Shown: in pieces, positions 709 through 7,203 of the stretch
Layout of the letters: every line of letters starts with the position of its first letter
Position numbering within the stretch: position 1 is the stretch's first letter
From: an uncultured Candidatus Saccharibacteria bacterium
GTDB taxonomy: Bacteria > Patescibacteriota > Minisyncoccia > Phycocordibacterales > Phycocordibacteraceae
Assembly: GCA_964360975.1 (NCBI GenBank)
Contig: CAYHYY010000001.1
Coordinates: 959-64,958 of the forward strand
Direction of reading: 5' to 3'
DNA: 64,000 nucleotides
Made by a program: the position numbers and the translations under genes
Notes under the pieces: model-generated
Seen by the model: only the letters and a program-made list of their open reading frames with translations
Databases searched by the model: none
What the model was told of the DNA's origin: nothing

Positions 709-1488
709 ATGAGAAGAAGCCTCGTGGTCATTGCCATATTGTCTGCACTATCTCCATTCACTGCTCACGCGGCGGTAGTGATTTCGGAGATCATGTATGA
801 CCTCCCTGGTTCTGATGAAAACAGAGAGTGGATAGAACTGTACAACAACGGTGTCGAGATCGTAGACCTGGAGGACTGGAGATTTTTTGAAGGCGGTGTC
901 AATCACAAAATACTCCCACGCCACGCTTTGAGCCTCATGCCAAACTCATATGTTGTCATCGTACGTCATGTCGATGGGTTCAAGACGGACTGGCCTTTAT
1001 ATGATGGGGCACTCTTTGTAAGCTCGTTTTCTCTCAATAACACGGGAGAAAACCTCACTATCAAAAACGCCAATCTTGAAACTATTTTTTCGCTCGCTTA
1101 CACAAATAACGTTGCCGCGGGGGATGGAAATTCATTGAATCTGATACAGGGCGAGCTTGCATCTCGTCGGCCAACGCCGGGTATGTCGATAGCCGATGAA
1201 CCCCTCACGATACCTAAAGTAGTTACTTCTCTGGCAGAAGCGGCACCAGTCTCGGACGGTAACCTTTCAACGCAGGACGAGGTTAGAGAGACAGGTGCAA
1301 TAGATGGGGGCGGTATGGACAGGGGGGTCTATGCCGCTTCTTTCGTAGCTGGTGAGGAGCAACGCCCGCGTTCAATATTCCCGTGGATCGCCTCACTCAT
1401 TGCGGTAATGGGGCTCGGCTTCGCATCAGTTTTGTGGCGAAAAAGAAAATCCAAAAGCGGGTACACTATCATTGAAGAGGAGGTATGA
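709..1488 (+). CDS. Lamin-tail-domain (LTD) surface protein with an N-terminal signal peptide and a C-terminal TM anchor followed by basic residues
   Basis: Signal-like N-terminus MRRSLVVIAILSALSPFTAHA. LTD hallmark VISEIMYD..G.D..EWIELYN. C-terminal hydrophobic helix followed by RKRKSK. Confidence 0.55.
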   Translation: MRRSLVVIAILSALSPFTAHAAVVISEIMYDLPGSDENREWIELYNNGVEIVDLEDWRFFEGGVNHKILPRHALSLMPNSYVVIVRHVDGFKTDWPLYDGALFVSSFSLNNTGENLTIKNANLETIFSLAYTNNVAAGDGNSLNLIQGELASRRPTPGMSIADEPLTIPKVVTSLAEAAPVSDGNLSTQDEVRETGAIDGGGMDRGVYAASFVAGEEQRPRSIFPWIASLIAVMGLGFASVLWRKRKSKSGYTIIEEEV

Positions 1489-2951
1489 AAGGAAAACTGA
1501 TATTGGTAACCGGCGGGGCCGGGTTCATCGGCTCGCATCTCTGTGAGAGATTGAGAGATGAGGGGAATACGGTGATCTCGCTCGATAACTATTTCACGGG
1601 AACGCGCACCAATCATGTGGCGGGCGTTCAGTATCGAGAAGGTCATACGAAGAACGTTGAAGCGCTCGTTCCTGAAACACCTGACGTCATCTATCACCTC
1701 GGTGAATATGCGCGTGTTGAACAGAGTGTCTTGGAGCCGGACATTGTTGAGGATTTGAATACGGAAGGCACAAAGGGCGTCGTGGATTTTTGGAAAAAGA
1801 GACGTTCGAAACTTGTCTATGCTGGTTCGTCGACCAAGTTTGGCGACGAAGGAAAAACACGTCTTGAATCACCCTACGCGCGCACAAAGGCTCTGAACTC
1901 AGAATTGGTGAAGCAGGTGGGAGAACAAGAAAAATTGCCGTACGCGATAACCTATTTTTACAATGTGTATGGAGCGCGTGAACGCGCTGGTGTCTATGGC
2001 ACGGTCATAGAGCAATTTAAGCGCATGTATGTTTCGGGAGCACCGTGCGCGGTGGTGCGTCCTGGTACGCAAGAGCGAAATTTTACGCACGTCGACGATA
2101 TTGTGGATGCGCTTATCCTCGTCGGCGAAAACGGATCGGGAGATGAATACGGACTGGGGAACGAGAAAGCGTACTCAATATTTGATGTGGCGACCATGTT
2201 TGGTTTTGGTTCTGATGTCGTGCTCTTTCCTTCGCGCTCGGGGAATCGCATGACGTCGCGACTGGACACGAGTAAAGTCAGCGCGCTCGGCTGGCGCGCA
2301 AAGCGTGAACTCGCAGCATACATTCGCGAGTTCACGAATTCAAAAACGCGAGGCGTTAAACGCGACAATCGAGTTCTTGTTTTTTCTACCACCATGCACC
2401 CGGTCGCCGGACTTGCCGAAGAATCCTTCGCTGAGCTCGCCAGAGAACTCCCCGATGTAGTCTTTGACGTCATTACGACCAAGTTCATGAGAAATGCACC
2501 GGAGGTCATTCCGTCGCCAAATATGCGGATATTTCGTCTCGGCATCGGAGCGAAAACTGACAAGTATTTTCTTCCTGTTCTTGGCGCAATCCGCGGCATA
2601 TCGTTACACATGAGCAGGCGATACCTCTTTACGTGGTCTCTGATGGCAAGCTATGCGGCTCTCTCCGCCCTCATTTTGAAGCAGTTGGTTCGTGCACCGC
2701 TCCTCATCACGCTTGCGGATCAAAATCTCGATGACCTTACCGCTCTACAGCGATTTGCGCTCTCATACATGATTTCGAAGGCTGATCAGGTGTATGGCAC
2801 CCACGGAGGCCAGGAAGCTCAGGCTATGCAAATGGCGGGGAGGAGTTTACCGAGGAATTCTGTCGGAGAGGGTGATGCCTTCGCCAATGCACTCCGTTTC
2901 GCGTACGCCGACATAGTGAGGCGTTTTCAAAATGACTACAGAACGCCATGA
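1485..2951 (+). CDS. NAD-dependent epimerase/dehydratase (extended SDR) fused to a GT4-like N-terminal half-domain
   Basis: GGAGFIGSHL Rossmann motif and YARTK (YxxxK). The C-terminal ~190 aa aligns with the N-terminal domain of the downstream GT4 (RVLVFSTTMHP../KVLIFSLAYYP..; RIFRLGIGA/FVHRIGIAS). It has no EX7E donor-binding domain. Confidence 0.6.
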   Translation: MKGKLILVTGGAGFIGSHLCERLRDEGNTVISLDNYFTGTRTNHVAGVQYREGHTKNVEALVPETPDVIYHLGEYARVEQSVLEPDIVEDLNTEGTKGVVDFWKKRRSKLVYAGSSTKFGDEGKTRLESPYARTKALNSELVKQVGEQEKLPYAITYFYNVYGARERAGVYGTVIEQFKRMYVSGAPCAVVRPGTQERNFTHVDDIVDALILVGENGSGDEYGLGNEKAYSIFDVATMFGFGSDVVLFPSRSGNRMTSRLDTSKVSALGWRAKRELAAYIREFTNSKTRGVKRDNRVLVFSTTMHPVAGLAEESFAELARELPDVVFDVITTKFMRNAPEVIPSPNMRIFRLGIGAKTDKYFLPVLGAIRGISLHMSRRYLFTWSLMASYAALSALILKQLVRAPLLITLADQNLDDLTALQRFALSYMISKADQVYGTHGGQEAQAMQMAGRSLPRNSVGEGDAFANALRFAYADIVRRFQNDYRTP

Positions 2952-4162
2952 CCAATGAAAAGAAAAAAGTGCTCATATTCTCGCTCGCGTACTATCCAAA
3001 GCACGTTGGGGGTGCCGAGGTTTCAATAAAGGAGATCACCGACCGAATCAGTGACATCGAATTTCATCTCATCACCAACCGGTTTGATTCAACCTTGCCT
3101 AAGGAGGAGAAAATAGGAAACGTCTTTGTTCATAGGATCGGCATTGCGAGCGAGAATCCAACAATGGCTGATCTAAAGCGTTTTCCTCTCAACCTCAACA
3201 AACCGCTCTATCAGTTTCTTGCTGCCTGGCGTGCGCATCGACTGCACGCACGGTACCGTTTTGATGCCATGTGGGCGATGATGGCGCACTCGACTGGTGT
3301 TCCCGCAGTGATTTTCAAAATGCTCCACCCGCGCGTTAAATATATTCTCAATTTACAGGAAGGGGATCCAATACCGTACATAGAAAGAAAGATGCTTCCT
3401 TTGTGGTTTTTCTTCAGCCGCGCATTTACGAAGGCGGATATCATTCAACCGCTTTCTACATTTCTCGCAGAGTGGGCGAGGAGGCGTGGATTTACGGGGC
3501 CTATCGTCATCATCCCGAATGCCGTCAATGCGGAGCATTTTTCTGAAGAGTATCCAGCCTCGGTGATCAATGATATTCGTGATTCGCTCGGGAAAAAAAT
3601 GGGCGACGTATTTTTGATCACGACATCTCGCCTGGTTAAAAAGAATGCGGTCGATGATGTTATCCGCGCGCTCGCACTTCTTCCGAAAAACGTGCGCTTT
3701 ATTGTTCTCGGTGTTGGGCCAGACGAAGTACAACTCAAAGAGCTCGCAAAAAAACTTGGTGTGTCGCCACGTGTTGCATTCTTGGGACACGTTGGCCATG
3801 ACGAAATGCCAAAGTATCTAAAAGCATCTGATATTTTTATACGGCCGTCACGCTCTGAGGGGTTTGGGGCGTCGTTTGCCGAGGCTATGGCAGCCGGACT
3901 TCCCGTCGTGGCGACTCAAGAGGGTGGCATCGCAGATTTTCTTTTTGATGAGAAACTGAATCCTGACAAGCCGATAACTGGCTGGGCGGTCGAAAAAGAT
4001 TCACCGCAGCAGATAGCCGCTGCAATCAACAACATTATGGAAAATCCCGAGAAAGTCCGGGCTGTCGTGAAGACCGCGAAGGCGATGGTGGTAGGTAAAT
4101 ATGATTGGGATATCATCGCGAGAGACATGCGCACCAAAGTTTTTAATGCTCTCGGCATCTAA
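2948..4162 (+). CDS. Glycosyltransferase family 4 (GT-B, retaining)
   Basis: C-terminal RPSRSEGFGASFAEAMAAGLPVVAT (EX7E-type motif). Overlaps the upstream gene by 4 nt. Confidence 0.75.
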   Translation: MTNEKKKVLIFSLAYYPKHVGGAEVSIKEITDRISDIEFHLITNRFDSTLPKEEKIGNVFVHRIGIASENPTMADLKRFPLNLNKPLYQFLAAWRAHRLHARYRFDAMWAMMAHSTGVPAVIFKMLHPRVKYILNLQEGDPIPYIERKMLPLWFFFSRAFTKADIIQPLSTFLAEWARRRGFTGPIVIIPNAVNAEHFSEEYPASVINDIRDSLGKKMGDVFLITTSRLVKKNAVDDVIRALALLPKNVRFIVLGVGPDEVQLKELAKKLGVSPRVAFLGHVGHDEMPKYLKASDIFIRPSRSEGFGASFAEAMAAGLPVVATQEGGIADFLFDEKLNPDKPITGWAVEKDSPQQIAAAINNIMENPEKVRAVVKTAKAMVVGKYDWDIIARDMRTKVFNALGI

Positions 4163-4163
4163 C

Positions 4164-5270
4164 ATGCGTATTCTCATTGCAACGGGCCTCTATCCTCCGG
4201 AGATTGGGGGACCAGCAACGTATTCAGCGCACCTCAAGAGGAGTCTGCCCGCGCATGGCATCGAAGTGGTTATCTTGCCGTTTAGCCGAGTTCGCCAATA
4301 TTGGAAAGTAGTTCGTCATCTCGTGTACTTCTACCTTGCCTTCAAGGAAGGAAAACGGACAGACCTTATATATGCTCAAGATCCTGTATCGGTCGGTGTG
4401 CCAGCGCTGTGTGCCGCGTTTTTATTACGGAAGCCTTATATGCTCAAGATTGTCGGCGATTACGCATGGGAACAGGCATCGCAGCGTTTCGGCTACGCGG
4501 GTACCCCCGATGCTTTCCAGGATGCTGAAATTCATATCATTGCAAAGATCTTCAGGACATTGGAACGTTTTGTTGCCAGGCAAGCGCACGTGGTCGTCGT
4601 TCCATCAAAGTATCTTGGCGGCATCGTGCGCCTTTGGGGTGTCCCCGAAGAGAAAATTGCGGTTATAAAAAATGGTATCGAGAGTTTCCAAGATACTGGT
4701 TCAAAGAGCGTCATTCGTGGATTATTTAAATTTCATGGAAAACTTATCATTTCGGTCGGCCGACTCGTTCCGTGGAAGGGATTTGATCTCTTAATTAGAA
4801 TTCTTCCCGCTATAAAAAAAAATTATCCTGATACAAAACTGCTCATTATTGGGTCGGGGCCTCTGATGGATGTTCTCGAAAAGAAATCTGTACAGATGGG
4901 GCTCATGAATGATGTCGTGTTTACCGGTGCACTGGAGCGGGACATCCTCATTCGCTATATTCGAGCATCAGATGTGTTTGCGTTGAATACGTCATATGAA
5001 GGACTTTCACATCAAATTCTTGAGGTGATGGCAGTCGGTGTTCCGGTCGTGACGACCCGCGTCGGTGGTAATCCAGAAGTTATTACGCACGGCGTTGATG
5101 GGTATCTCTTAAAGCACAATGACGCGAAGGGGTTTAGAGAAACTATCATGAAGCTGCTTGGTGATAGCGGTTTACGAACCCGTACGGTGGCAAACGCAAA
5201 GCGAAAAATCACGCAATTTTCTAATGAACGCATGGTCGCAGAAACGGCAGCACTGCTAAAAACAATATGA
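4164..5270 (+). CDS. Glycosyltransferase family 4
   Basis: MRILIATGLYPPEIGGPATY N-terminus and NTSYEGLSHQILEVMAVGVPVV motif. The start is taken at ATG 4164, directly after the upstream stop. Confidence 0.75.
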   Translation: MRILIATGLYPPEIGGPATYSAHLKRSLPAHGIEVVILPFSRVRQYWKVVRHLVYFYLAFKEGKRTDLIYAQDPVSVGVPALCAAFLLRKPYMLKIVGDYAWEQASQRFGYAGTPDAFQDAEIHIIAKIFRTLERFVARQAHVVVVPSKYLGGIVRLWGVPEEKIAVIKNGIESFQDTGSKSVIRGLFKFHGKLIISVGRLVPWKGFDLLIRILPAIKKNYPDTKLLIIGSGPLMDVLEKKSVQMGLMNDVVFTGALERDILIRYIRASDVFALNTSYEGLSHQILEVMAVGVPVVTTRVGGNPEVITHGVDGYLLKHNDAKGFRETIMKLLGDSGLRTRTVANAKRKITQFSNERMVAETAALLKTI

Positions 5271-6349
5271 ACGTTCTCATGTTGTCCACCGATGCGAAGA
5301 TTTTTGCTCCGGGGAGCGCGCGTGAACGCATCACATCGTATGGAACCATTGTTGATTCACTCACGCTCGTCATTTTTTCTATGGGATCTCCGGAACGAAT
5401 TAATCTTGCGCAAAATGTCATCGCCATTCGTATTGGCGGTGGTAATAAATTTATTGTGTTCGCGCGTGGGATTTTGATTCTTTTGAAGGAGACGAAGTTG
5501 CGTGCATACGACGTTGTGTCGTCTCAAGACCCGTTCGCTATCGGCTTGGCAGCGCTCATGGTTTCTTACCTTCGGAGCATACCGCTTCAGATCCAGGTAC
5601 ACACTGATTGTTTTTCTCGCGCATACCGGAGCGAATCAATCCGTCGATTTCTGGAAGCGTTCATCGCGCGGTGGGTTGTCTCTCGCGCCTCATGCGTCCG
5701 CGTTGTTTCTAAAAGGATTGCGAGGTCGGTTGCCTCGATGACTTTGGCGCCGCTCTCCATACTACCGATTCTGGTACAACCCGCGCGCGCAGTCTTGAGC
5801 GTCCCGGCCCCACATTCGGGGAAATATATTACTTTTCTTGTCGTTTCTCGTCTCACGAAAGAAAAACAACTGGGCATTGCCATTGAGGCTATTGCGCGCG
5901 TGCCATTAGCTGGCCTGATCGTTGTTGGCGATGGCTCTGAGAGGAATCGTCTAGAAAAAAAAGTTGCCGAACTTGCGCTCAGTGACCGCGTTCAATTCGT
6001 GGGGTGGAAAGATGATAGAGCGTCGTCCTACCAGCATGCCGACTGTTTTATCCAAACCTCGCGCTATGAGGGGTACGGTATGGCGCTCGTTGAGGCAGCA
6101 CTCTACGCTCTCCCGCTTATTTCAACCGATGTCGGTGTCGTTGGTGAAACTTTCATTGAGGGGCAAGAAGTACTCATCGCAGATGCCAACACAGAATCCT
6201 TCGCGGCTGCTATTCGTAAAATGGTCGATGACGAGGCATTCCGGAAAGCGATGGGAAGGCGCGCTAGAGAGAAAGCGCTGGCACTCGTTATGCCGCCTCA
6301 CGAATATCTTCGAAAGTACCAGGAGGCGCTTAAAACCTGCGTTTTTTAG
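5267..6349 (+). CDS. Glycosyltransferase family 4
   Basis: TSRYEGYGMALVEAALYALPLISTDVG motif. 4 nt overlap with the upstream gene. Confidence 0.7.
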   Translation: MNVLMLSTDAKIFAPGSARERITSYGTIVDSLTLVIFSMGSPERINLAQNVIAIRIGGGNKFIVFARGILILLKETKLRAYDVVSSQDPFAIGLAALMVSYLRSIPLQIQVHTDCFSRAYRSESIRRFLEAFIARWVVSRASCVRVVSKRIARSVASMTLAPLSILPILVQPARAVLSVPAPHSGKYITFLVVSRLTKEKQLGIAIEAIARVPLAGLIVVGDGSERNRLEKKVAELALSDRVQFVGWKDDRASSYQHADCFIQTSRYEGYGMALVEAALYALPLISTDVGVVGETFIEGQEVLIADANTESFAAAIRKMVDDEAFRKAMGRRAREKALALVMPPHEYLRKYQEALKTCVF

Positions 6350-6372: not shown

Positions 6373-7203
6373 ATGACAGTCGGCTTCATCGGGCAAGGAT
6401 TCATAGGAAAAGCGTATGCGGATAATTTTGAGCAACGCGGCTACGCGGTCGTGCGCTATGCGCGAGAAGAGAAGTTTGCCAGTAGCAAAGACAAAATAGC
6501 TGAATGTGACTTCGTGTTCATAGCGGTTCCGACACCGACGACGCCGGGAGGTTTCGACTACTCTATTGTCGAGGGTGTCCTCTCACTCGTTGGGAAAGGA
6601 AAGGTCGCGATCATCAAGTCGACCCTCCTTCCCGGGACGACCGTAAAACTTCAGGAAAAATATCCCGATATTCTTGTGCTGCATTCGCCTGAATTTTTGC
6701 GGGCGCGTTCGGCAGGAGAAGATGTACAGCGGCCAGCGCGGAATATAGTAGGTATTCCGAAAGAGACTGCAGCATTGAGGCGTGCCGCAGAGGAAGCAAT
6801 AAAGATTATGCCGCACGCGCAATTCGATGCGGTGATTTCTTCTACTGAGAGTGAACTCGTCAAATATGCGGGGAACGTATTTCTCGCCATGAAGTTGATC
6901 TTTGCAAACATGCTGTTTGATGTATCGAAGGCAATCGGCGCAGACTACGAAAGCGTGAAAAATTCATTTGGTGCTGACCCGCGAATAGGCATGAATCATC
7001 TCGCGATAGATTTTGAAGGCGGGCGTGGCGCTGGCGGTTTCTGTTTCATCAAGGACTTCGCTGCATTCAATGAGCTTTATGAAAAAATGGCGAATGATCC
7101 AGTCGGACTCAAGGCGCTCAAAGGTTTTGAAGAAAAAAATGTAAAACTGCTCAGAGATTCTGGGAAGGACCTCGAATTGCTCAAGGGAGTTTATGGTGAA
7201 TAG
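6373..7203 (+). CDS. UDP-glucose/GDP-mannose dehydrogenase family protein, unusually short (lacks the C-terminal UDP-binding domain)
   Basis: GQGFIG Rossmann motif, VFIAVPTP, SPEFLRA (PEFLREG-like), and catalytic GGFCFIKD (GGSCFPKD-like). Only ~50 aa follow the catalytic Cys. Confidence 0.6.
   Translation: MTVGFIGQGFIGKAYADNFEQRGYAVVRYAREEKFASSKDKIAECDFVFIAVPTPTTPGGFDYSIVEGVLSLVGKGKVAIIKSTLLPGTTVKLQEKYPDILVLHSPEFLRARSAGEDVQRPARNIVGIPKETAALRRAAEEAIKIMPHAQFDAVISSTESELVKYAGNVFLAMKLIFANMLFDVSKAIGADYESVKNSFGADPRIGMNHLAIDFEGGRGAGGFCFIKDFAAFNELYEKMANDPVGLKALKGFEEKNVKLLRDSGKDLELLKGVYGE

What the first reader, a model, noticed from the sequence alone, without database searches (positions are those of the whole stretch)
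1485..2951. Epimerase/dehydratase fused to a half glycosyltransferase (GT4 N-terminal domain only)
The C-terminal ~190 aa of this extended-SDR protein are colinear with the N-terminal (acceptor-side) Rossmann domain of the next gene's GT4. Examples are RVLVFSTTMHPVAGLAEESF versus KVLIFSLAYYPKHVGGAEVS, and LFTWSLMASYAALSALI versus FDAMWAMMAHSTGVPAVI. The protein then stops without a donor-binding EX7E domain. The next gene follows with a 4 nt overlap, so a simple frameshift is unlikely. A duplicated and truncated GT half-domain fused to a nucleotide-sugar-modifying enzyme suggests a scaffolding or acceptor-binding role, analogous to the Alg13/Alg14 split GT. It could couple sugar modification to transfer.
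Basis: seen in the sequence. Interest (0 to 1): 0.5.

Follow-up and report, generated by a model that had tools for sequence, protein, structure and literature searches.

The report
Sugar-modifying enzyme fused to half glycosyltransferase
This gene encodes an intact nucleotide-sugar-modifying enzyme permanently joined to only the front half of a glycosyltransferase copied from the family of the next gene; the fusion is conserved in over a hundred Patescibacteria species, so it is a real, apparently undescribed adaptor-like design and not a broken gene.

Summary
ORF 1485-2951 (488 aa) is a complete extended-SDR enzyme (residues 1-288) followed by a GT4-type GT-B N-terminal Rossmann domain (about 295-452) and one long helix (461-486). 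It has no donor-binding C-domain.

- **Not a pseudogene.** More than 100 homologues keep the same length. In 82 of 83 related loci the SDR and the half domain share one frame, and 58 of 188 half-domain columns are at least 90% conserved.
- **Link to GT4a.** GT4a lies directly downstream in 57 of 83 loci and is fused in frame to the protein in 8.
- **A second version exists.** A rarer UXS-like SDR carries the same half domain in the same operon.
- **No Alg13/Alg14-type partner.** No orphan C-half was found in the 64-kb window.

Best reading, by inference: a catalytically dead GT4a paralogue tethers the SDR to GT4a and/or its membrane acceptor. The architecture is a new variant of known kinds and of moderate interest.

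The parts
1485..2951 (+). Complete ORF of 488 aa: extended SDR fused to a GT4-derived N-domain. The start ATG overlaps the upstream stop (ATGA) and a GAGGAGG ribosome-binding-like site lies upstream.
   Evidence: The identical protein, P0001, is in public data.
1485..2348 (+). Extended-SDR nucleotide-sugar epimerase/dehydratase-type domain (residues 1-288). It has GGAGFIGS (residues 10-17), the triad S115/Y131/K135, and the invariant R198 and R251 at NDP-binding-type positions.
   Evidence: PF01370 at 138.5 bits. PDB sequence hits to UDP-Glc 4-epimerase 7ys8 (E 6.7e-24) and to UXS (E 1e-22). Foldseek TM-score 0.80-0.81 (target-normalised) to the 308-aa epimerase 4zrm. Invariant columns.
2367..2840 (+). 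GT-B (GT4-type) N-terminal Rossmann domain only (residues 295-452), with six predicted beta-alpha units. Motifs shared with GT4a: PxxGxAE, RxGxG...DKYLLP and WxxMASY. Motifs changed from GT4a: G[LP]AE for GGAE, ITLADQ for LTLQEGD, ADQVYG for ADxIQxIS.
   Evidence: consensus sequences.
2847..2942 (+). Invariant tail LPRNS-GEGDAFAN-LR-AY, which forms one long C-terminal helix (model residues 461-486) that closes the half domain. Its origin is unresolved: either the GT-B crossover helix or a relic of the EX7E segment.
2948..4162 (+). GT4a: a full-length GT4 glycosyltransferase (N-domain PF13439, C-domain PF00534 containing EX7E). It is the paralogue of the half domain and its likely functional partner.
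709..1488 (+). Upstream lamin-tail-domain protein with hydrophobic N- and C-terminal segments. It overlaps the start of the fusion gene by ATGA and is a frequent upstream neighbour in related loci.
4101..6349 (+). GT4b (4101/4161-5270) and GT4c (5267-6349): two further full-length GT4 genes of the conserved operon. Neither is detectably similar to the half domain.
6373..7203 (+). Short UDP-glucose/GDP-mannose-dehydrogenase-like protein (276 aa; N-terminal and central domains only). It is a frequent member of the operon and hints at a UDP-uronic-acid substrate for the SDR.

Best explanation
**What it is (shown).** The gene encodes a conserved two-domain protein of Patescibacteria (Paceibacteria/Parcubacteria lineages).
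- The N-terminal 288 residues are an intact NAD-dependent extended SDR of the nucleotide-sugar epimerase/dehydratase/decarboxylase class.
- The C-terminal 190 residues or so are a paralogue of the N-terminal Rossmann domain of the neighbouring GT4a glycosyltransferase.
- This paralogue lacks the whole donor-binding Rossmann domain and is closed by a single C-terminal helix, so it cannot be a glycosyltransferase by itself.

**How it most likely works (inferred).** The half domain is a non-catalytic adaptor. It keeps the subfamily-specific surface shared with GT4a (RxGxG...DKYLLP, WxxMASY) and is basic, like GT4a's N-domain. It would dock the SDR onto GT4a and/or onto the same membrane-proximal acceptor. 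The NDP-sugar made by the SDR, probably from a UDP-uronic acid supplied by the operon's UGDH-like enzyme, would then be produced next to the transferase that uses it. GT4b and GT4c would extend the glycan.

**Confidence.** The architecture part is near-certain (above 0.9). The adaptor-to-GT4a mechanism is about 0.45. The overall figure given blends the two.
For: **Architecture and fold**
- The SDR is intact: Pfam, PDB sequence and fold matches, the GxxGxxG motif and the S-Y-K triad.
- The half domain is homologous specifically to the GT4a N-domain: BLASTP E 3e-10, hhalign E 3.9e-42, and no significant match to GT4b or GT4c.
- A profile search of 1.84 billion representatives gave only 646 hits. 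After the fusion family itself, the best are full-length GT4a-like enzymes matched over their first 150 residues or so (E about 1e-28).
- The fold is a GT4 N-domain. The full-length model has pLDDT 92 and pTM 0.90.

**Selection**
- 117 homologues are 58-72% identical and 478-510 aa long.
- The half domain has 55% mean pairwise identity, and 58 of 188 columns are at least 90% conserved.
- The SDR and the half domain share one frame in 82 of 83 loci. The genome-collection scan found relatives in 128 places; 79 of the 80 kept are among those 83.

**Coupling to GT4a**
- GT4a is directly downstream in 57 of 83 loci and fused into one ORF with the protein in 8 of 83. The fused proteins P0003, P0019 and P0121 are end-to-end junctions.
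- A different, UXS-like SDR carries the same half domain in the same LTD-SDR/half-GT4a context.

**Charge**
- The half domain has a mean net charge of +6.8 and the GT4a N-domain +10.2, against -3.6 for the SDR.
Against: - No direct evidence of a physical contact between the half domain and GT4a. No complex could be modelled, and neither coordinates nor PAE were available.
- GT4a-like enzymes work without any SDR-half partner in other lineages (L087, L090).
- In 15 of 83 loci an unrelated gene sits between the two genes, and in 1 locus no GT4a was found within 6 kb.
- The high pTM of the full-length model suggests that the conserved cleft face of the half domain may pack against the SDR itself and not against GT4a.
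- The substrate of the SDR is unknown. It is only 26-30% identical to any solved enzyme.
Confidence: 0.55

Rival explanations
1. The half domain is a membrane- or lipid-acceptor-targeting module that works independently of GT4a. It would place the SDR at the membrane, or bind a polyprenyl-phosphate-linked or protein acceptor, as the basic N-domains of peripheral GT-B enzymes do.
For: - The half domain is basic (+6.8 on average), like the GT4a N-domain (+10.2), while the SDR is acidic.
- The motifs shared with GT4a lie at the C-terminal edges of the strands, the face that lines the cleft in GT-B enzymes (general knowledge of the fold).
- The upstream gene is a membrane LTD protein whose stop overlaps the fusion gene's start (ATGA).
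- The fusion persists where GT4a is not adjacent.
Against: - There is no transmembrane segment, and no amphipathic helix was demonstrated.
- The eight in-frame fusions and the strict specificity for the GT4a subfamily point to GT4a itself.
- The SDR keeps NDP-binding-type arginines, so it probably acts on a soluble substrate.
Confidence: 0.25
2. The half domain is an oligomerisation or allosteric regulatory domain of the SDR. For example, it could bind a nucleotide sugar or a pathway product and tune SDR activity, with no role in recruiting a transferase.
For: - The full-length model has pTM 0.90, which implies a fixed SDR/half-domain interface.
- The half domain's own invariant residues (TLADQ, ADQVYG, GEGDAFAN) differ from those of GT4a, which suggests a new function.
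- Two different SDR subtypes carry the domain.
Against: - The TLADQ and GEGDAFAN motifs are not conserved in the UXS-type fusions, so they are not essential to the architecture.
- This reading does not explain the adjacency to GT4a or the fusions with it.
Confidence: 0.15
3. It is one half of a split glycosyltransferase of the Alg14/Alg13 or EpsE/EpsF type. A separately encoded donor-binding half would assemble with it to form an active GT-B enzyme.
For: - The domain is a bona fide GT-B N-half.
- Split GT-B enzymes exist (PMC8993221, read).
Against: - All six GT4 C-domains in the 64-kb window sit in ORFs of 373-408 aa that have their own N-domains. There is no orphan C-half.
- No gene with a GT4 C-domain alone was called in the three neighbourhoods inspected.
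- The domain carries its own closing helix.
- GT4a's conserved N-domain motifs GGAE and QEGD are replaced.
- Its relatives are GT4, not the Alg13/14 clade.
Confidence: 0.03
4. It is a broken gene: a frameshifted or truncated duplicate of a full-length GT4 that was accidentally joined to an SDR.
For: The domain ends where a GT4 C-domain would begin. One related locus (L019) has the SDR and the half domain in different frames, and L084 was flagged for an internal stop.
Against: - The same architecture and length occur in more than 100 homologues at 58-72% identity.
- The SDR and the half domain share one frame in 82 of 83 loci (81 without an internal stop), and the half domain is strongly conserved.
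- No GT4 C-domain remnant lies downstream, because GT4a starts inside the stop codon.
Confidence: 0.01

Closest known systems
Extended SDR nucleotide-sugar enzymes (UDP-glucose 4-epimerase GalE such as TM0509 4zrm and Rv3634c 7ys8; UDP-xylose synthase UXS 4lk3/2b69)
   Same: Residues 1-288 have the complete extended-SDR fold, the NAD-binding motif, the S-Y-K triad and arginines at NDP-binding-type positions. The DNYFTG motif resembles UXS-type enzymes.
   Different: - Identity to any solved enzyme is only 26-30%.
- It lacks the TSE and YDEGKR motifs that the UXS-like fusion proteins P0132, P0137 and P0154 carry (these are UXS signatures from general knowledge).
- It carries a family-specific invariant EYxRVEQS motif.
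- None of these enzymes has a GT-B half domain attached; the best query-normalised TM-score is 0.54.
GT4 retaining GT-B glycosyltransferases (WbnH 4xyw, PimB' 3okc, MshA 3c48, BshA, sucrose-phosphate synthase 6kih)
   Same: Residues 295-452 have the GT4 N-domain fold and sequence signature, including the PxxGxAE loop.
   Different: The whole donor-binding C-domain with EX7E is absent, so the domain is not a transferase. The engineered SPS construct 6ldq_D (residues 27-220 plus 406-426, per its PDB title) is a laboratory counterpart of a half-GT-B of this kind.
Alg14/Alg13 and bacterial EpsE/EpsF split GT-B enzymes
   Same: In both cases a GT-B N-half is encoded without a covalently attached C-half.
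   Different: - In Alg14/Alg13 the two halves are separate proteins that assemble into an active site (PMC8993221). Here no C-half partner exists in the window.
- The domain closes itself with its own helix.
- It belongs to the GT4 lineage, not to the GT1/GT28-related lineage.
Non-catalytic GT-B paralogues that partner a catalytic GT (GtfB/Gtf2 with GtfA; Asp1 of the accessory Sec system)
   Different: Those proteins keep both Rossmann domains and are not fused to a sugar-modifying enzyme. Here only the N-domain remains, and it is fused to an SDR.
ArnA (formyltransferase fused to a UDP-GlcA decarboxylase SDR)
   Same: It is a bifunctional fusion that attaches an extended SDR acting on a UDP-sugar to another pathway module. 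ArnA appears among the fold hits of the SDR part.
   Different: The partner domain in ArnA is a catalytic formyltransferase placed N-terminal to the SDR. Here the partner is a non-catalytic GT half placed C-terminal to it.

Membership tests
Extended SDR (NAD-dependent epimerase/dehydratase, PF01370) | Score above the Pfam gathering threshold over the whole domain | tested here: met
   138.5 bits against a cutoff of 20.9; residues 6-222 cover profile positions 1-237 of 240.
Extended SDR (NAD-dependent epimerase/dehydratase, PF01370) | GxxGxxG NAD-binding motif and catalytic Ser/Thr-Tyr-x3-Lys triad | tested here: met
   GGAGFIGS at residues 10-17. S115/S116, Y131 and K135 align with the SS, Y and K of epimerase 7ys8 and are invariant in 117 homologues.
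Extended SDR (NAD-dependent epimerase/dehydratase, PF01370) | Two-lobed extended-SDR fold of about 300 aa | tested here: met
   Foldseek target-normalised TM-score 0.80-0.81 to the 308-aa chain 4zrm.
UDP-xylose synthase / UDP-GlcA decarboxylase (UXS) subfamily | S/T-S-E motif at the catalytic Ser/Thr and Y-D-E-G-K-R around the catalytic Tyr (UXS signature, from general knowledge) | tested here: not met
   The window protein has AGSSTKFGD and SPYARTKA. The UXS-like fusion proteins P0132, P0137 and P0154 have STSE[IV]YGD / SSADIYGE and CY[DE]EGKR, plus a 10-residue insert that is absent here.
GalE UDP-glucose 4-epimerase (TIGR01179 equivalog) | Score above the NCBIfam equivalog cutoff | tested here: not met
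   79.1 bits against a cutoff of 262.3. The specific activity is therefore unassigned.
GT4 glycosyltransferase (GT-B, retaining) | N-terminal acceptor-side Rossmann domain of GT4 type | tested here: met
GT4 glycosyltransferase (GT-B, retaining) | C-terminal donor-binding Rossmann domain (PF00534) with the EX7E motif | tested here: not met
   No PF00534 or PF13692 hit even at E up to 10. The GT4a C-domain HMM does not hit this ORF. The ORF ends 36 residues after the N-domain, and the next gene starts inside the stop codon.
Alg14/Alg13-EpsE/EpsF split GT-B | A separately encoded donor-binding half that completes the active site (PMC8993221) | tested here: not met
   All six GT4 C-domains in the 64-kb window lie at positions of about 180-400 in ORFs of 373-408 aa. 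No C-half-only gene was called in the three neighbourhoods inspected. The rest of the genome was not available.
Alg14/Alg13-EpsE/EpsF split GT-B | Sequence membership in the GT1/GT28-related Alg14/EpsE clade | tested here: not met
   The nearest relatives are GT4a-type GT4 enzymes, and the top structural matches are GT4 enzymes.
Non-catalytic GT-B helper paralogues (GtfB/Gtf2-like) | Stable complex with the adjacent catalytic GT | not testable with these tools
   Only indirect support: adjacency in 57 of 83 loci and in-frame fusion in 8 of 83. No multimer modelling was available.
Non-catalytic GT-B helper paralogues (GtfB/Gtf2-like) | Complete two-domain GT-B fold retained | tested here: not met
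   Only the N-domain plus one helix is present.

The most novel reading that the evidence does not exclude
The half domain keeps the acceptor pocket of GT4a and presents the GT4a substrate or product, a lipid- or protein-linked sugar, to the SDR active site. The SDR would then oxidise, epimerise or decarboxylate the sugar after or during transfer and would not act on the free nucleotide sugar. This would be a new way of building an acceptor-directed sugar-modifying enzyme from a glycosyltransferase half.
Probability: 0.08. Interest if true: 0.7.

Novelty: new variant of a known kind. Interest (0 to 1): 0.4.

Why it matters
**For protein evolution.** The fusion shows that a GT-B N-terminal domain can persist for a long evolutionary time as a self-contained, non-catalytic module. 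It was cut out of a working transferase and re-used as an add-on to nucleotide-sugar SDRs.

**For experiment.** The arrangement predicts a physical complex between an SDR and a GT4 enzyme that would channel an NDP-sugar. The complex can be tested directly and is backed by natural three-part fusions. It sits in the cell-envelope glycan operon of Patescibacteria, organisms whose surface chemistry is almost unknown.

**For annotation.** These proteins are currently named only 'epimerase/dehydratase' or 'hypothetical'. Their last 190 residues carry no curated domain call, because the Pfam matches in homologues fall just below threshold.

It is not a new catalytic principle, and the functional reading is still inference.

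Tried and rejected
- **PDB sequence search with the half-domain profile.** No hit even at E up to 10. Fold comparison was needed instead.
- **AlphaFold-database fold search.** The library was not installed.
- **Literature.** Four full-text searches found nothing describing this architecture: epimerase + glycosyltransferase + fusion + Patescibacteria; truncated or non-catalytic GT-B; lamin tail domain + Parcubacteria; split GT.
- **Tail as an EX7E relic.**
  - hhalign places LPRNSxGEGDAFAN on GT4a's PSRSEGFGASFAEAM, but with E 0.15 and probability 0.4%.
  - An HMM of the tail scores no better on real GT4a-like proteins than on shuffled ones.
  - The idea is kept only as an open question.
- **Pseudogene or frameshift.** Rejected on conservation.
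- **Split-GT partner.** Searched with a C-domain HMM over all six-frame ORFs of the window; none found.
- **A conserved extra gene between the fusion gene and GT4a.** Rejected: the intervening ORFs in L008 and L055 are unrelated and lie on different strands.
- **Naming the neighbours.** NCBIfam gave only sub-threshold generic GT4 matches.
Full report
**Observation**

ORF 1485..2951 (+) encodes 488 aa. Its ATG overlaps the stop of the upstream lamin-tail-domain (LTD) gene (ATGA), and its own stop overlaps the ATG of the next gene, 2948..4162, also as ATGA.

Pfam finds only extended-SDR families on residues 6-237 (PF01370, E 3.2e-40) and nothing on residues 290-488, even at E up to 10. BLASTP against the downstream 404-aa GT4 ("GT4a") aligns residues 296-436 with GT4a residues 7-166, at 27% identity and E 3e-10.

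**Is the C-terminal part a GT4 N-domain?**

Three independent lines say yes.
- *Profiles.* An alignment of 30 half domains (A3) against 42 GT4a-like proteins (A5) gives hhalign probability 100% and E 3.9e-42 over 159 columns, half-domain positions 5-164 against GT4a 4-167. A GT4a N-domain HMM hits only GT4a and this ORF in the whole window (E 2e-33). The GT4a C-domain HMM does not hit this ORF. Homologues P0056 and P0067 give PF13579 at E about 1e-6, just below the Pfam threshold.
- *Specificity.* The half domain shows no significant similarity to the other two GT4 genes of the operon (E 0.09 and 0.15). A profile search of 1.84 billion representatives gave only 646 hits. After the fusion family itself, the best are GT4a-like enzymes of 360-400 aa matched over their first 150 residues or so (E about 1e-28). 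The half domain is therefore a paralogue of one narrow GT4 subfamily, the one its neighbour belongs to.

**Not a pseudogene**

- The first search returned more than 100 proteins of 478-510 aa, 58-73% identical and covering 97-100% of the query. They come from Yonathbacteria, Kaiserbacteria, Minisyncoccia and other Patescibacteria.
- A scan of one genome per GTDB species found relatives in 128 places, and the 80 kept are almost all labelled as Patescibacteria lineages.
- Over 83 loci, the SDR and the half domain share one frame in 82. The exception is L019; L084 was flagged for an internal stop.
- Mean pairwise identity is 69% for the SDR and 55% for the half domain, and 58 of 188 half-domain columns are at least 90% conserved.
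- The conserved positions of the half domain cluster in and just after the predicted strands: PxxGxAE after beta1, RxGxG...DK after beta3, WxxMASY after beta4, TLAD after beta5, and D-QVYG at beta6. A further invariant block, GEGDAFANxLRxAY, forms the tail.

**What changed relative to GT4a**

| Feature | GT4a | Half domain |
|---|---|---|
| Loop after beta1 | GGAE (G21, G22 invariant) | G[LP]AE |
| Motif after beta5 | LTLQEGD | ITLADQ |
| Motif at beta6 | ADxIQxIS | ADQVYG |
| Shared motifs | RxGxG...DKxLLP, WxxMAS | RxGxG...DKxLLP, WxxMAS |

These come from the consensus sequences. Conserved GT4a N-domain motifs have thus been replaced by other conserved residues, while subfamily-specific surface motifs are retained. 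In other GT4 enzymes the glycine-rich loop after beta1 faces the donor (general knowledge); that was not tested here.

**Origin of the tail helix (unresolved)**

The tail may be the GT-B crossover helix, or it may be a relic of the EX7E segment. hhalign puts it on PSRSEGFGASFAEAM with both Glu replaced, but at E 0.15, and an HMM test was no better than shuffled sequences.

**The SDR**

- Residues 1-288 are a complete extended SDR, with GGAGFIGS and the S115/Y131/K135 triad aligned to epimerase 7ys8.
- R198 and R251 are invariant in the motifs PGTQxRNFTHV and PxRxGNR. These resemble the NDP-contacting motifs of GalE and UXS; this comparison rests on general knowledge and on the sequence.
- The fold matches UDP-hexose 4-epimerases with a target-normalised TM-score of 0.80-0.81 at 26-30% identity.
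- The protein fails the GalE equivalog cutoff (79 bits against 262) and lacks the TSE and YDEGKR signatures seen in the UXS-like fusion proteins. Its exact reaction is unknown.
- A UGDH-like gene in the operon suggests a UDP-uronic-acid substrate. This is inference.

**Context**

- The order LTD protein, SDR-half, GT4a (about 403 aa), GT4b (about 365 aa), GT4c (about 355 aa), short UGDH-like protein is conserved.
- GT4a lies directly downstream in 57 of 83 loci and is separated by an unrelated inserted gene in 15.
- No GT4a was found in 3 loci; in two of these the contig ends within a few bases of the gene.
- GT4a is fused in frame into a single ORF with the SDR-half protein in 8 loci: L004, L005, L006, L010, L024, L036, L074 and L081.
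- The fused proteins P0003 (854 aa), P0019 (849 aa) and P0121 (876 aa) are clean end-to-end junctions. Where the two genes share a frame, as in L003, loss of a stop codon is enough to produce the fusion.
- In other lineages GT4a is fused to GT4b (P0146) or occurs without any SDR-half partner.
- A rarer family (P0132, P0137, P0154, P0271; 9 clusters) joins a UXS-like SDR to the same half domain in the same LTD-SDR/half-GT4a context. P0154's half domain still reads SLYEGK where GT4a has TLQEGD, so it looks less diverged.

**Mechanism**

*Shown.* The protein is an intact SDR covalently joined to a GT4a-derived N-domain that has no donor domain. It is under purifying selection and is genetically coupled to GT4a.

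*Inferred.* The half domain is a non-catalytic adaptor that docks the SDR to GT4a and/or to the shared membrane-proximal acceptor, coupling NDP-sugar modification to transfer. The half domain is basic (+6.8), like GT4a's N-domain (+10.2), whereas the SDR is acidic (-3.6).

*Rivals.*
- A membrane or acceptor anchor independent of GT4a.
- A regulatory or oligomerisation domain. The pTM of 0.90 hints that its conserved face may contact the SDR.
- An Alg13/14-type split GT. This is disfavoured: there is no orphan C-half in the window, the domain has its own closing helix, and it belongs to the wrong clade.
- A pseudogene, which the conservation data refute.

**Comparison and novelty**

The components are ordinary: an extended SDR and a GT4 enzyme. 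The architecture, an SDR plus a GT-B N-half only, has no counterpart among solved structures; the best query-normalised TM-score is 0.54. None was found in four full-text literature searches either. Public records call these proteins 'epimerase/dehydratase family' or 'hypothetical'. I rate it a new variant of a known kind, of moderate interest.

Noticed in passing
window 6373-7203 (+): A 276-aa UDP-glucose/GDP-mannose-dehydrogenase-like protein with only the N-terminal and central domains (TIGR03026 positions 67-282 of 413). The C-terminal UDP-binding domain is missing, although a GGFCFIKD Cys motif is present. The same short form (289-294 aa) sits in the operon in L001 and L003, and tblastn finds it in about 40 of the 83 related loci. 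A second 'incomplete' enzyme in the same operon.
   Followed up: partly
window 709-1488 (+); also L001, L003, L004, L085: A lamin-tail-domain protein with hydrophobic N- and C-terminal segments lies directly upstream, overlapping the SDR start by ATGA. It recurs upstream of the fusion gene in many loci, including the UXS-type locus. It could be the glycosylation target or an envelope partner.
   Followed up: partly
P0132, P0137, P0154, P0271; loci L085, L086: A second, rarer fusion family joins a UXS-like SDR (STSE[IV]YGD, CYDEGKR) to the same GT4a-derived half domain, in the same gene context. In L085 the SDR part is split into three ORFs, which looks like assembly errors.
   Followed up: partly
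L004, L005, L006, L010, L024, L036, L074, L081 (proteins P0003, P0019, P0121): In about 10% of the related genomes the SDR-half protein and GT4a form one ORF of about 850-876 aa (SDR, half GT, then full GT4).
   Followed up: yes
P0146 (733 aa), locus L090 5001-7202: In another lineage GT4a is fused to GT4b in one protein, and the cluster has no SDR-half gene.
   Followed up: partly
window 2847-2942 (residues 455-486): The invariant tail LPRNSxGEGDAFANxLRxAY lines up with GT4a's EX7E segment PSRSEGFGASFAEAM. The Gly, Gly and Phe positions coincide and both Glu are replaced. The match is not statistically significant (E 0.15; HMM scores equal to shuffled sequences).
   Followed up: partly
window 8575-29158: A large glycan-biosynthesis island follows the operon. 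It contains a PMT_2-like GT-C membrane protein, a GT2, an LPG_synthase_TM protein, three more GT4 genes, two asparagine-synthase-like genes, several methyltransferases (one FkbM-type), a hexapeptide acyltransferase, a GT9, a 617-aa NeuB-cupin fusion and a CMP-sugar cytidylyltransferase.
   Followed up: no
L019 (about 2825-2836) and L084: In L019 the SDR and the half domain are in different frames. L084 was flagged for an internal stop in the fusion ORF. These may be assembly errors or rare decay of the gene.
   Followed up: no
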